NCBI RefSeq assembly: GCF_009914755.1
Contig: NC_060947.1
Length of the DNA: 64,000 nt
Origin: the human T2T-CHM13v2.0 reference genome, Homo sapiens
Reading direction: 5' to 3' (one strand)
Below are positions 11,491 to 14,774 of this stretch, in pieces. The translations under genes were made by a program, and so were the position numbers. The notes beneath the pieces were generated by a model, which worked only from the letters and a program-made list of their open reading frames with translations, did not search any database and was not told the DNA's origin. Each line of letters begins with the position of its first letter. Within the stretch, counting starts at the first letter, position 1.

Positions 11491-12459
11491 GGGCTAAAAG
11501 GTTGTTTCACAAACTCTCCACCCTGCAGTGAACATAACATTCAACTTCCTTAAAGCCAGACATTATGTTTGTGCAATAGCTCCCTAAAAACTACGAAATG
11601 GCTTTTCCATCAAAGCAAATTTGAAAAAGTATTGAGAAATACAGAAAGTCTGAACTATAAATTTGTAGGGCATTTTGTATGATGATAGTAGCTAATGGCA
11701 ATATGCTCTATATTCTTCTCTGTGGCATCCTAATTTGTCATGCCTAAAATGCACCTGGGTGATTGAGAATGTATTTGCTTCCTTTCAGGAAGTGGCTGGT
11801 GACTATAGCAAGAGGAATGTTGCAGAATAATTTGTTATTACAGAAGAAAATGGGTGAAAAGTTTATGGCAGACTAAAACCTGACATCAATCCTAATCTTA
11901 TTTTTACTTGCTGTGACTCACGAGTGATGTTGACTTTTTTTTTTTTTTTTGCAGCTGACACTTTGTGCTGCCAACCTCCCTTTCATTTATTTGCGTTTGT
12001 TTTTGCTTTTTATTGTTACCCCAGTGACATCTTTCTCTTTCCTCTCATAGAGAGAAGGATTAAGATTTAAAAGATAATATAATATGAACATGTTTATTTA
12101 GCCATAGACGCTGAGTCCCCAATAATATTTTCATTTTTATAAGGAGTTTTGAATATAAGGACACATTCATTTAAAAGGACTATTACGTGAAAAATTTTCA
12201 TGGCTGACTAATGGGTTGGTTTCTGCCAACAATAATGAGCATAATTTCAACTGAACAATATTGCTGTTTTTCACCAATTCTGTTATTCGCCATCAGTCTA
12301 GCATCATACTTTCTTCAATCATTTTCTGCTATTACAATCTGAATGTAATACAAAATACTGGGTATTAATGTATTATCCTAATGCAGTCTTTGGAAAAATA
12401 CTAAATTTGTGATTCAGTGGTCCATACTTCTGAACAATGTTTTTTCTTTCAAAACTTGT

Positions 12460-13160
12460 TGATTTTATTTTTATTTATCACCATTACTATACCCTATAGG
12501 TATAAGATTTGGTCGCTCTACACAGTTGACCTTTTTTCCACAGCCCCTTCTGGAGATGTAACAGATAGTTTTAGGTCTCTGGGCCTCCCTATGCACAGGG
12601 CTTACTTGGATTGGTGGAGTTATCCGGGGGTCTTTTGGTTTTGATTTCATTTCTTATTTAACATGTGGTAACAGACAATTATTGTTGGCTTTTTCCCCTC
12701 TCTTATGCTTTCTTGATTGGGTGATAGATGTTTCAGAGGATTTTTTTTTTTGTCTGCAGAAGGGGGAAGGAACAATTTATATCCTCATAGTTGTCTTGTG
12801 TACCTGGTAGGGCAAGAGAGTGAACACAGAAGGGCATTGGTTTAGGGGAAGAAGACGGAGACAAAATGGGAAGCGGGGGCTTCATAAAGGGTATAGGTTG
12901 AGGAAAGGTTTTTGCCAGGCCAGGACAGGATAGGACTCTTGGGAGAATGTATGGGGAAGAAGAGAAGGAGCATGGGTAGGGTTATCTGACCTGGCAACTG
13001 TTTCTGTATTTGCACTGGCAAGGGGTCGTCCCCTCTTTCTTTTCTTCTTCAGCACTTGTGGCTGATTCTTCTGCTCTTGTGGTTGGTTGGTCCATATCTG
13101 TGCTGAATGTCTGTGGTTTGTCTGTAATCTCAGCCATGTTGAAGCCTTCTAGTGGTCTGT
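12460..13160 (-). pseudogene. Putative two-exon SPANX-N/VCX-family-like gene relic
   Basis: TATATATA 13181-88; ATG at 13137 in strong Kozak context opens 49 codons (MAEITDKPQTFSTDMDQPTTRAEESATSAEEEKKEGTTPCQCKYRNSCQ) up to a CAG|GTCAGA donor at 12990; pyrimidine-rich intron with AG acceptors at 12805-04 and 12755-54; exon 2 carries PTIIVCYH and DNSTNP remnants with stops and frameshifts; tandem AATAAA 12464-12475. Family assignment is from recalled SPANX-N/VCX sequences. Confidence 0.6.
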
Positions 13161-13400
13161 CCCAGGGAGCTCCCCCTGCCTATATATACCCTCCCCTAGG
13201 CAAGGCAAAGACACACTCTTAAGCTGTGCTTGGTCATCCAGGCACTGCTGCAGCCAATGGTAGCCCTGGAGTGTCTTGGACATCATGAAACACAACCCCG
13301 ACACCTCCACTGGTGGTTGGGTGGTAGTGGGGGGATGCTGGAGAGGCTAAGATGCTGTGATTGGAGAAAGGGGGTTTCTTTAACACCACATAAAGAGCTT
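13138..13400 (-). promoter_or_regulatory. TATA/CCAAT promoter resembling the shared SPANX/VCX/CSAG/Cypt promoter
   Basis: Minus strand reads 'tttgccttgcctaggggagggTATATATAggcagggggagctccctgggaca...aggcttcaacATG'; CCAAT motifs at 13254-58 (+) and 13360-64 (-). Confidence 0.55.
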
Positions 13401-13651
13401 TCCCAAACTGACTTGCCACCCCCTCCTCTTCTCATATTCAATTCTGTTGACCCCCATCGCAGAAAGAGGGTGCTTCCTTCAAGTTGTTCCCCCATGGCCA
13501 CCACATCAGTGGTTCATTCTTTTCTCTCCCACCCTTCACCATTATTTAGTATTTTGGATGTCTTGCCTAAAATCCCTCTAAGGTAATGTGGCCATATTTA
13601 AGTCTCTGTGGCCATGTGAATCATCCTACTTGTCCCTAATTTGTGTGCTTG

Positions 13652-14638
13652 TTTTGATTTATTTCAATAGTTTTGGGGGTACAGGTGGTTTTTTGTTACA
13701 TGAGTAAGTTCAGTGGTTATTTGTGAGATTTTAGTGCACCCATCACCTGAGCAGTGTACACTGTACCCAATATGTAGTATTTTATCCTTCACCCCCTCCC
13801 AACCTTCCCCTTCACTGAGTTACCAAAGTCCATTATATCATTCTTATGCCTTTGCATCCTCATAGCCTAGCTCCCACTTATAAGTGAGAACATATGATAT
13901 TTGGTTTTCCATTCCTGAGTCACTTCACTTAGAATAATGGCCTCCAGCTCCTTCCAAGTTGCTGCAAAAGACATTATTTCATTCCTTTTTATGGCTGAGT
14001 AGTATTCTTTGGTATACATATACCACGTTTTCTTTATCCACTCATTAGTTGAGGAGACTTAGGTTGCTCCCATATCTTTGCAATTGTGAAATATGCTGCT
14101 ATAAACCATGCGTGTGCATGTGTCTTTCATATAACTTCTTTTCCTCTGAGTAAATGCCCAGTAGTGGGACTGCTGGATCGAATGGTAGATCCACTTTTAG
14201 TTCCTTAAGGAATCTCTATACTGTTTTCCACAGTGGTTGTACTAATTTACATTCCCATCAGCAGTGTAAAAGTGTCCCCTTTTCACCACATTCACAACAG
14301 TATCTTTTTTTTTTCTTTTTTACTTTTTAATTATGGCCTTTCTTGCAGAGTAAAGTGGTATCTCATTGTGGTTTTAATTTGCATTTCCCTGATGATTAGT
14401 GATAGTGAACATTTTTTCATATGTTTGTTGGCTGTTTCTGTATCTTCTTTTGAGAAATAAATGTCTATTCATGTCCTTTGCCTGCTTCGTGATGGGATTA
14501 TTTGTTTCTTGTGGATTTGTTTGAGTTCCTTACAGATTCTGGATATTAGTCCTTTGTTGAATGTATAGTTTGTGAAGATTTTCTCCCACTCTGTGTGTTG
14601 TCTGTTTACTATGCTGCTTATTTCTTTTGCTGCGTAGA
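13652..14638 (-). mobile_element. 5'-truncated L1PB-like element
   Basis: L1PB-type 3' UTR 'tttatttcaatagttttgggggtacaggtgg...' continuing into the ORF2 C-terminal region. Confidence 0.8.
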
Positions 14639-14774
14639 ACATGCTTCTGAACAGTTTTCTATAGGTCAGTTTCAGGTCTGTCAGGAACTGACTTTAATGC
14701 TTCTTTTTTGCTTTTTTCATCAAATTGTAAGCAATTCTCTATGAAAGATGCAATTTGACAAATTATTAAATTGC

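What the first reader, a model, noticed from the sequence alone, without database searches (positions are those of the whole stretch)
12460..13190. Hidden two-exon SPANX-N/VCX-like testis gene relic in a repeat desert
Seen in the sequence (minus strand): TATATATA 13181-88; caacATGg at 13137; an in-frame second ATG at 13095 (MDQPTT); 49 open codons ending exactly at a phase-0 CAG|GTCAGA donor; a 187-nt pyrimidine-rich intron ending '...cccctaaaccaatgcccttctgtgttcactctcttgccctaccAG' (12804); a downstream exon; and tandem AATAAA. From memory of these families: the TATA context matches the promoter shared by SPANX, VCX/Y, CSAG and mouse Cypt; the intron 3' end resembles the short VCX intron; MDQPTT...PC, TIIVCY and DNSTNP echo SPANX-N MEQPTS...SPC, TIIVYY and ENSINP. 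Inference: this is a diverged, intron-containing (duplicated, not processed) paralogue without the ERV insertion found in SPANX introns. It could link the SPANX and VCX lineages and suggests the window is on chrX. The ORF track misses it because exon 1 is under 60 aa.
Basis: partly seen in the sequence, partly recalled or inferred. Interest (0 to 1): 0.8.

Follow-up and report, generated by a model that had tools for sequence, protein, structure and literature searches.

The report
L1-carried SPANX-like gene relic
A decayed, unannotated two-exon copy of an X-linked sperm-gene family (SPANX/VCX/CSAG type) lies in an FRMPD4 intron, and it appears to have been carried there, promoter and intron included, by a LINE-1 retrotransposon.

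Summary
Every named feature is present on the minus strand.

The roughly 1.2-kb unit (about 13649-12451) is colinear with at least 24 X/Y loci. These include loci shown by Pfam to be SPANX-N, SPANX-A/D and VCX/VCY. It is therefore a real paralogue of the known shared-promoter superfamily. It is not a transposable-element consensus or a chance match.

Its lineage, the window copy plus one 86% sister at X 138.79 Mb, lies on the SPANX side of the promoter tree but outside the SPANX clade. It lacks the LTR/provirus present in every SPANX intron.

The coding part has decayed:
- The spliced ORF is only 57 codons, ended by a TAA shared with the sister.
- The TIIVCY and DNSTNP homologues sit in two other frames.
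- pN/pS is about 0.85.

New finding: the unit is the 3' half of a single 2,203-bp insert. The layout is TSD, 5'-truncated LINE-1, unit ending at its own poly(A) site, A-rich tail, TSD. This points to L1 3' transduction of an unspliced, promoter-bearing gene, not DNA duplication.

Verdict: a new member of a known kind, of moderate interest.

The parts
14640..14653 (-). Upstream copy of the target-site duplication (TGTTCAGAAGCATG). It ends one base before the first L1 base.
   Evidence: It is a 14-mer with 1 mismatch to the copy at 12436-12423. Each copy is unique in the window.
13650..14639 (-). 5'-truncated LINE-1: the C-terminal end of ORF2, the 3' UTR, and its own AATAAA at 13663-13658. It has the same orientation as the gene unit.
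   Evidence: High-copy interspersed repeat: 13,846 and 11,318 first-look candidates, at 82-85% identity on many chromosomes. Window 13870-14058(-) matches residues 1218-1274 of the 1275-residue LINE-1 ORF2 protein (8sxt_A), E 1.2e-17.
13189..13649 (-). Family promoter region, cut off at its 5' end by the L1. It contains an inverted CCAAT box (CCATTGG) at 13260-13254.
   Evidence: Aligns at 64-70% with the promoters of SPANX-N, SPANX-A/D, VCX/VCY and orphan copies, and at 86% with X138.79. In other copies the homology runs at least 600 nt further upstream.
13181..13188 (-). TATA box within the family motif GGGTATATATAGG.
   Evidence: The same motif sits at the same column in SPANX-N, X147-150 and VCX copies.
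12991..13137 (-). Exon-1 ORF of 49 codons, with a second in-frame ATG at 13095. It ends at a phase-0 donor.
   Evidence: The donor column is shared with SPANX-N (GAG|GTAAGA). The 'PC' codons align with SPANX-N 'SPC'.
12804..12990 (-). 187-nt intron (GT...AG), the ancestral short form without the LTR.
   Evidence: Homologous to the introns of VCX/VCY, the X138, X141.55 and X147-150 copies, and the last ~200 nt of SPANX introns. The splice junction is validated by the intronless chr18 retrocopy of a relative.
12451..12803 (-). Exon 2. The in-frame TAA lies at 12779-12777. The TIIVCY homologue (12685-12668) and DNSTNP homologue (12624-12607) are in two other frames. A TGA follows NKK.
12464..12475 (-). 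Two tandem AATAAA poly(A) signals.
   Evidence: They align with the poly(A) region of X147.32, X148.00 and the chr18 retrocopy.
12438..12449 (-). Short A-rich tail (AAAGAAAAAACA), starting 14 nt after the second AATAAA.
   Evidence: Family homology stops here. The flank 11900-12446 is unique in the genome.
12423..12436 (-). Downstream copy of the target-site duplication (TGTTCAGAAGTATG).
   Evidence: There are 2,203 bp between the two copies.

Best explanation
Window ~13649-12451 (minus strand) is a decayed two-exon copy of a gene from the X-linked SPANX/VCX/CSAG shared-promoter superfamily. It belongs to an old orphan lineage on the SPANX side, whose only close relative is a copy at chrX 138.79 Mb.

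It most likely reached this FRMPD4 intron by LINE-1 3' transduction. Under this reading:
1. An L1 sat about 460 bp upstream of the parental TATA box.
2. That L1 was transcribed through its own weak poly(A) signal and into the gene.
3. The read-through RNA ended at the gene's own AATAAA signals and stayed unspliced.
4. It was reverse-transcribed into the new site with 5' truncation inside the L1.

This would give the observed layout: TSD, 990 bp of L1, 1.2-kb gene unit, A-tail, TSD.

The parent already carried a premature TAA, so the spliced ORF is 57 codons against 161 in the intact relatives at X138.33/138.53. The copy has since drifted neutrally. Today it is most likely a pseudogene. At most it is a testis-type promoter driving a short non-coding or micro-ORF transcript antisense to FRMPD4.

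Shown directly: the homology, colinearity, tree position, ORF lesions, L1 identity, TSDs and the extent of the copy.
Inferred: read-through transcription, the unspliced RNA intermediate, the identity of the parent, and the lack of function.
For: Family membership:
- 34 matches, 33 of them on X/Y.
- Colinear alignments over 13639-12447.
- Pfam SPAN-X and VCX_VCY exon hits lie directly downstream of the matched promoters.
- SPANX-A/D promoters align at 68%.
- The proximal promoter motifs are shared.
- Donor, acceptor and intron are homologous to those of VCX/VCY and SPANX.
- The exon-2 motifs are positionally homologous.

Lineage:
- Promoter tree of 25 rows: WIN+X138.79 supported 100/100, SPANX clade 100/100, and a SPANX-side versus VCX-side split at 100/99.
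- All 10 SPANX loci carry the 448-bp LTR-like insert, paired in 4 and solo in 6. The window has none (Kouprina 2007, PMC1831492, passages).

Decay:
- TAA at codon 58, shared with X138.79.
- Frameshifts and a TGA further on in exon 2.
- pN/pS of 0.124/0.146, from 17 non-synonymous and 5 synonymous differences.
- Even divergence across promoter, exon and intron (JC 0.08-0.21).

Transduction:
- L1 identity.
- The 14-nt TSD sits exactly at the L1 5' end and just after the tail. Matches of that quality occurred in 11 of 3000 random segment pairs, the analytic chance is ~1e-5 for the fixed positions, and the control junction for the L1 alone gave only a 9-mer.
- The copy ends at the poly(A) site, and its flank is unique.
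- Flanks within ±10 kb are not homologous to X138.79.
- By contrast, the in-situ copies share at least 600 nt upstream and hundreds of nt downstream.
- The mechanism is described in the review PMC9917352 (passage).
Against: Against transduction:
- The intron is retained, although the same splice sites were used in this lineage (chr18 retrocopy).
- The tail is only 12 nt and interrupted.
- The TSD has one mismatch, and its A-rich extension has a 2-nt indel.
- No source locus with an L1 abutting the unit was found. X138.79 loses family homology at the same point, but it shows only a weak 24/31 match to the L1 end and no L1 within 10 kb.
- No outgroup genome was available to show an empty site.

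Against 'dead':
- The window copy still has CCAAT, TATA, both ATGs, the 57-codon ORF, both splice sites and both AATAAA intact. Its sister has lost TATA, CCAAT and both ATGs.

Pfam gives no SPAN-X or VCX_VCY hit on any of the 15 translated pieces at E <= 10.
Confidence: 0.8

Rival explanations
1. DNA-level duplication. A small genomic segment holding the gene was copied to Xp22.2, and the L1 upstream is an unrelated later insertion.
For: The intron and about 460 bp of promoter are retained, as in the DNA-level copies elsewhere on Xq.
Against: - The TSD brackets the L1 and the unit together, not the L1 alone. The control junction gave only a 9-mer.
- Homology ends exactly at the poly(A) site plus an A-rich tail.
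- No flank homology with the sister within ±10 kb.
- The promoter is cut exactly at the L1 3' end.
Confidence: 0.08
2. Template-switch chimera. L1 reverse transcriptase first copied an upstream-initiated, unspliced gene RNA, then jumped to the 3' end of an L1 RNA. This would give the same L1-gene-tail-TSD layout without an L1 ever sitting next to the parent.
For: No L1 is found next to the candidate parent X138.79. The layout is also compatible with this route.
Against: It needs an RNA that starts about 460 nt upstream of the TATA box. X138.79 loses family homology at the same point as the window copy. That is expected only if the break was already present in the parental DNA.
Confidence: 0.07
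3. A live micro-gene. The transduced promoter still fires in spermatids, and the spliced mRNA encodes a 57-aa (or 43-aa) cysteine-containing peptide with a function.
For: All signals are intact in the window copy, unlike in its sister. This family's proteins evolve fast, so weak conservation is not decisive (passages in PMC8327908, and PMC13616518).
Against: - pN/pS is about 0.85.
- The terminal branch is no shorter than the sister's, 0.079 against 0.060.
- Two thirds of the ancestral ORF are lost.
- There is no RefSeq model here (hub table).
- The upstream promoter is truncated.
Confidence: 0.08
4. A transposable-element consensus (for example an LTR with TATA and AATAAA) or a chance collection of signals.
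For: TATA and AATAAA lie about 700 bp apart, which superficially resembles an LTR.
Against: The copies are almost all X/Y-linked, 33 of 34. They are the promoters and exons of Pfam-confirmed SPANX and VCX genes. True repeats in the same search give thousands of candidates on all chromosomes.
Confidence: 0.01

Closest known systems
SPANX-N genes (Pfam SPAN-X loci at X 52.08, 141.33, 141.83, 142.02 and 143.51 Mb) and SPANX-A/D
   Same: - Promoter colinear at 68-70%.
- GGGTATATATAGG TATA motif and inverted CCAAT box.
- Phase-0 donor at the same column.
- Homologous intron 3' part and acceptor.
- Exon-2 motifs TIIVYY and ENSINP at homologous positions.
   Different: - Outside the SPANX clade.
- No LTR/provirus in the intron.
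- No SPAN-X Pfam hit.
- The ORF uses an upstream ATG, which SPANX-N lacks.
- Reading frames are broken.
- Located at Xp22.2 inside an L1-mediated insert.
VCX/VCY (Pfam VCX_VCY loci at X 6.09, 7.40, 7.74, 8.03 Mb and Y 14.89, 14.96 Mb)
   Same: Shared promoter, TATA, phase-0 donor and a ~190-nt intron with the same acceptor context.
   Different: On the other side of the 100/99 promoter bipartition. No protein-level similarity. No 30-bp repeat exon.
Shared-promoter superfamily VCX/Y-SPANX-CSAG-Cypt (Hansen et al. 2008, Mol Reprod Dev 75:219). Known here only through citing passages in PMC8327908; the paper itself is not held.
   Same: This is the kind of locus that defines the group: X-linked, with the conserved promoter, a short first coding exon and a small intron.
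   Different: This copy and at least seven other orphan lineages (X119.81, 136.76, 138.33/53, 138.79, 139.93, 141.55, 147.32, 147.94/148.00) carry no RefSeq gene in this window. I could not see whether Hansen et al. list them. Relation to mouse Cypt could not be tested. The CSAG label for X149.8-150.4 is recalled from map position.
Gene copies made by retrotransposon 3' transduction (L1 3' transduction; the SVA-mediated AMAC1 family, Xing et al. 2006, as described in PMC9917352)
   Same: Retroelement 3' end, then downstream flank, then a poly(A) tail, bracketed by TSDs. A whole gene is moved to a distant site.
   Different: Here the carrier is an L1, and the cargo keeps both its promoter and its intron. 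The cargo was already truncated in its ORF. From recall, the AMAC1 copies are intronless.
Sister copy at chrX 138,792,370-138,793,428 (L002)
   Same: 85-86% identical over 13659-12594. It shares the TAA and the TGA, and the same 5' limit of family homology.
   Different: In situ: its downstream flank is homologous to the flanks of other family loci. It has lost TATA, CCAAT, both ATGs and the last ~140 nt plus the poly(A) signals. There is no L1 beside it.

Membership tests
VCX/Y-SPANX-CSAG(-Cypt) shared-promoter superfamily | Conserved promoter region with TATA box upstream of a short first coding exon | tested here: met
   64-70% identity over ~460-490 nt to 23 loci, and 86% to one. Motif columns are shared.
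VCX/Y-SPANX-CSAG(-Cypt) shared-promoter superfamily | Sex-chromosome linkage and two-exon core with a small phase-0 intron | tested here: met
   The window is on chrX. The 187-nt intron is homologous to introns of 177-213 nt in the other copies and in VCX/VCY.
VCX/Y-SPANX-CSAG(-Cypt) shared-promoter superfamily | Homology to murine Cypt promoters | not testable with these tools
   No mouse genome is held.
SPANX proper (Pfam PF07458) | Protein matches the SPAN-X profile | tested here: not met
   0 of 15 translated pieces hit at E <= 10. None of the 21 genome-wide SPAN-X hits lies in the window.
SPANX proper (Pfam PF07458) | Retroviral LTR or provirus in the intron (Kouprina 2007, PMC1831492) | tested here: not met
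   The intron is 187 nt. The 448-bp insert is found at all 10 SPANX loci but not here.
SPANX proper (Pfam PF07458) | Falls inside the SPANX clade | tested here: not met
   The SPANX clade (8 rows, 100/100) excludes WIN+X138.79.
VCX/VCY (Pfam PF15231) | Protein matches the VCX_VCY profile | tested here: not met
   no hit in the window.
L1 3' transduction product | L1 3' end in sense orientation directly upstream of the non-L1 cargo | tested here: met
   The ORF2 C-terminus and 3' UTR end at ~13650, and the unit starts at ~13649.
L1 3' transduction product | Cargo ends at a poly(A) signal followed by an A-tail | tested here: met
   Two AATAAA signals, then 14 nt, then AAAGAAAAAACA. The tail is short and degenerate.
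L1 3' transduction product | Target-site duplication brackets L1 plus cargo | tested here: met
   A 14-mer with 1 mismatch at 14653-14640 and 12436-12423.
L1 3' transduction product | Source locus with an L1 abutting the cargo; empty site in outgroups | tested here: inconclusive
   X138.79 shares the break point but has no L1. The empty site cannot be tested, because no other primate genome is held.
Processed pseudogene | Introns removed and no promoter | tested here: not met
   Intron and promoter are both present. The chr18 copy L013 is the processed form.

The most novel reading that the evidence does not exclude
The L1 did not just drop a dead copy. It delivered a still-competent spermatid promoter, with splice sites and poly(A) signals, into an FRMPD4 intron. 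The unit is still transcribed antisense in testis or tumours as a micro-ORF (57 aa) or regulatory RNA. More broadly, L1 read-through would then be one way this fast-evolving cancer/testis superfamily seeds new X-linked sites with self-sufficient, promoter-carrying copies.
Probability: 0.1. Interest if true: 0.55.

Novelty: new member of a known kind. Interest (0 to 1): 0.38.

Why it matters
The locus adds an unannotated member to the SPANX/VCX/CSAG superfamily, at least as far as RefSeq goes. With it comes a set of orphan lineages, two of which hold an intact 161-codon ORF.

It preserves the ancestral short-intron, pre-LTR gene structure. That helps in reconstructing how the SPANX and VCX genes relate.

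It is also a clear natural example of an L1 moving a whole gene, promoter and intron included, 127 Mb along the X chromosome. L1 3' transduction is an established process, but few examples carry a gene complete with its promoter and intron.

For annotation, it marks a possible testis- or tumour-active promoter that runs antisense inside a gene I recall to be linked to intellectual disability.

Tried and rejected
- Pfam on 15 translated pieces of the unit: no SPAN-X or VCX_VCY hit. There were only two unrelated hits, at E 0.15-0.21.
- Pfam on 6 L1 pieces: nothing. L1 identity was obtained instead from PDB ORF2p sequences.
- The search of earlier findings was not open.
- Hansen 2008 is not held. 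A phrase search found only 2 citing papers.
- FRMPD4+SPANX: 8 papers, seen as a listing only, and none about this locus by title.
- transduction+SPANX+retrotransposon: 3 papers, listing only, none relevant by title.
- The far-upstream family region was sought elsewhere in the window and within 10 kb of X138.79. It was not found, apart from repeat-derived hits.
- A first gap-tolerant local alignment of the chr18 copy to the genomic unit was uninformative. It was replaced by a MAFFT alignment to the in-script spliced units.
- An apparent CACAAATT(T)AG repeat at 13644 and 12410 was considered as a TSD and dropped. It is not at the junctions.
- The TE-consensus and chance readings were rejected.
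- Gene conversion between the window and X138.79 was considered and rejected. X138.79 has no family homology upstream of the shared break.

Full report
**Observation.**
- TATATATA at 13188-13181.
- ATG at 13137.
- A second in-frame ATG at 13095 (MDQPTT).
- 49 open codons ending at CAG|GTCAGA, with the donor at 12990.
- A 187-nt pyrimidine-rich intron ending in AG at 12804.
- Two AATAAA signals at 12475-12464.

Searches show that TIIVCY (12685-12668) and DNSTNP (12624-12607) exist, but in two frames other than that of exon 1.

**Is it more than chance?** A search of the window's own assembly with 13620-12400 gave 34 matches: 31 on X (including itself), 2 on Y and 1 on chr18. Re-alignment to the fetched loci shows colinear homology over about 13639-12447, with E-values down to 1e-127.

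I named the loci by tool results rather than from memory:
- Genome-wide scans with Pfam SPAN-X gave 21 hits, and VCX_VCY gave 18 hits.
- SPANX-N exon-1 hits lie directly downstream of the promoter matches at X 52.08, 141.33, 141.83, 142.03 and 143.51 Mb.
- VCX/VCY exons lie downstream of the matches at X 6.09-8.03 Mb and Y 14.9 Mb.
- SPANX-A/D promoters, fetched, align at 68%.

None of the 15 translated pieces of the unit hits either Pfam family at E <= 10. Membership therefore rests on DNA colinearity, not on a protein profile.

**Anatomy compared with relatives.**
- *Promoter.* The proximal promoter shares the family columns: TGTGATGTC..AAG..CAC, the inverted CCAAT (CCATTGG, 13260-13254) and GGGTATATATAGG.
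- *Exon 1.* It aligns with SPANX-N exon 1 up to a donor in the same column and phase, and the 'PC' codons are homologous. The window's MDQPTT, however, aligns with the in-frame leader upstream of the SPANX-N start. The SPANX-N ATG aligns with the window's AEESATS.
- *Intron.* It is homologous along its length to the ~190-nt VCX/VCY intron, including the acceptor context. It is also homologous to the last ~200 nt of SPANX introns.
- *SPANX intron insert.* In SPANX, a 448-bp TG...CA element sits a few bases into the intron. It is a dispersed repeat, with 170 first-look candidates on many chromosomes. It is solo at 6 SPANX loci and paired about 7.4 kb apart at 4. This agrees with passages of Kouprina et al. 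2007 (PMC1831492). The window copy lacks it.
- *Exon 2.* TIIVCY and DNSTNP align base-for-base with SPANX-N codons that read TIIVYY and ENSINP in the loci's own translation.

**Lineage.** I built a promoter tree of 25 rows and 507 columns, leaving out loci with less than 200 nt of promoter match.
- One bipartition (100/99) separates VCX/VCY plus the X147-150 copies from the rest.
- The rest comprises the SPANX clade (8 rows, 100/100), WIN+X138.79 (100/100), X138.33+138.53, and X141.55, 136.76, 139.93 and 119.81. Relations among these groups are unresolved.
- The window copy is therefore SPANX-side but not a SPANX gene. It is one of several orphan lineages, not a unique link between SPANX and VCX.

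**Coding state.**
- Spliced at the homologous sites, the window ORF is 57 codons. It ends at TAA 12779-12777.
- The sister X138.79 shares that TAA and the later TGA. It has also lost both ATGs, gained a 1-nt insertion, and mutated its TATA and CCAAT.
- The relatives at X138.33 and X138.53 keep an intact 161-codon spliced ORF. Against that ORF, the window has the stop, a net frameshift before TIIVCY and another before DNSTNP.
- WIN against X138.79 gives pN 0.124 and pS 0.146, from 17 non-synonymous and 5 synonymous differences.
- Divergence is even across promoter, exon and intron, at JC 0.08-0.21.
- The window's terminal branch (0.079) is no shorter than the sister's (0.060).
- Together these point to neutral decay after an inherited truncation.

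An intronless copy on chr18 (L013) joins exon 1 to exon 2 exactly at the predicted junction and ends in AATAAA plus an A-run. A relative on the SPANX side of the family was therefore transcribed and spliced in the germ line using these sites. That retrocopy has no TAA at the homologous codon.

**How it got here.**
- Only the unit is shared between the window and X138.79, over 12594-13659. Within ±10 kb, everything else that matches is Alu-sized repeats.
- Upstream, the window runs straight into a high-copy repeat: 11,318 and 13,846 first-look candidates, at 82-85% identity.
- The frame of that repeat at 13870-14058(-) matches the last 57 residues of the LINE-1 ORF2 protein, E 1.2e-17. Pfam gave nothing for these pieces.
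- This L1 is 5'-truncated at 14639. It has the same orientation as the gene and ends with its own AATAAA at 13663-13658.
- Immediately 5' of the L1 lies TGTTCAGAAGCATG (14653-14640). The same 14-mer with one mismatch lies at 12436-12423, just after the A-rich run that follows the gene's AATAAA signals by 14 nt.
- Each 14-mer is unique in the window. Random 81x91-nt segment pairs gave such a match in 11 of 3000 trials, and for the fixed positions the analytic chance is about 1e-5. The control junction for the L1 alone gave only a 9-mer.
- The downstream flank 11900-12446 is unique in the genome.
- By contrast, other family loci share at least 600 nt of further upstream sequence. The downstream flank of X138.79 is homologous to the flanks of five other family loci and their duplicates.

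The window copy thus has the extent of a transcript, and it sits inside a 2,203-bp L1-type insert. The best reading is L1 3' transduction, a mechanism described in a passage of PMC9917352.

X138.79 is an in-situ locus and the candidate parent. It loses family homology at the same point as the window copy. However, it shows only a weak 24/31 match to the L1 end and has no L1 nearby. The parent is therefore not proven.

**What is known.**
- The shared-promoter superfamily is in print: Hansen et al. 2008, seen only through citing passages in PMC8327908. The paper itself is not held, so I cannot say whether this locus is listed there.
- RefSeq has no model here, according to the hub table.
- I found no paper tying SPANX-type sequences to FRMPD4 or to transduction (listings only).
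- The CSAG label for the X149.8-150.4 copies is recalled from map position. Their exon 2 gives sub-threshold VCX_VCY hits, at E 1e-3 and 2.6e-5.

**Verdict.** This is a real, old, decayed paralogue of a known superfamily. It is a new member of a known kind. The added value is the L1-transduction origin and the preserved pre-LTR gene structure.

Noticed in passing
L003 (G000:C23:138526678-138530629, minus) and L004 (C23:138327288-138331088, plus): Two nearly identical family copies lie about 200 kb apart in opposite orientation. Each keeps TATA-like and CCAAT-like motifs, good splice sites and an intact spliced ORF of 161 codons (48+113). The product is very basic and has no Pfam match. They look like a live, possibly unannotated gene pair.
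   Followed up: partly
L013 (G000:C18:11767214-11770434), about 1300-1790: An intronless, poly(A)-ended processed retrocopy of a SPANX-side family member on chr18. It is 72-75% identical to the window and X138.79 exon 2, and it has no TAA at the window's stop position.
   Followed up: partly
G000:C8:94354447-94354764: A contiguous VCX_VCY Pfam match (positions 7-116, 1 TAG) on chr8. It looks like a processed VCX copy off the sex chromosomes.
   Followed up: no
G000:C23 at 119.81, 136.76, 139.93, 141.55, 147.32 and 147.94/148.00 Mb (L018, L011, L015, L010, L012, L030/L009): Further orphan copies of the same promoter/two-exon unit with broken or very short ORFs. X147.94 and X148.00 are an inverted pair with identical promoters. 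Several of these copies share at least 600 nt upstream and hundreds of nt downstream, so they arose by DNA-level duplication.
   Followed up: partly
window 13650-14104: This stretch is clearly LINE-1 (ORF2 C-terminus and 3' UTR), yet it is absent from the hub's list of the longest masked stretches, which starts at 14105. That file's masking under-calls this element.
   Followed up: no
G000:C23:143514592-143514801 and C23:52081354-52081545: The SPAN-X exon-2 matches at two SPANX-N loci each contain one in-frame TGA. This fits the statement in Kouprina 2007 that two SPANX-N genes carry frame-disrupting changes.
   Followed up: no
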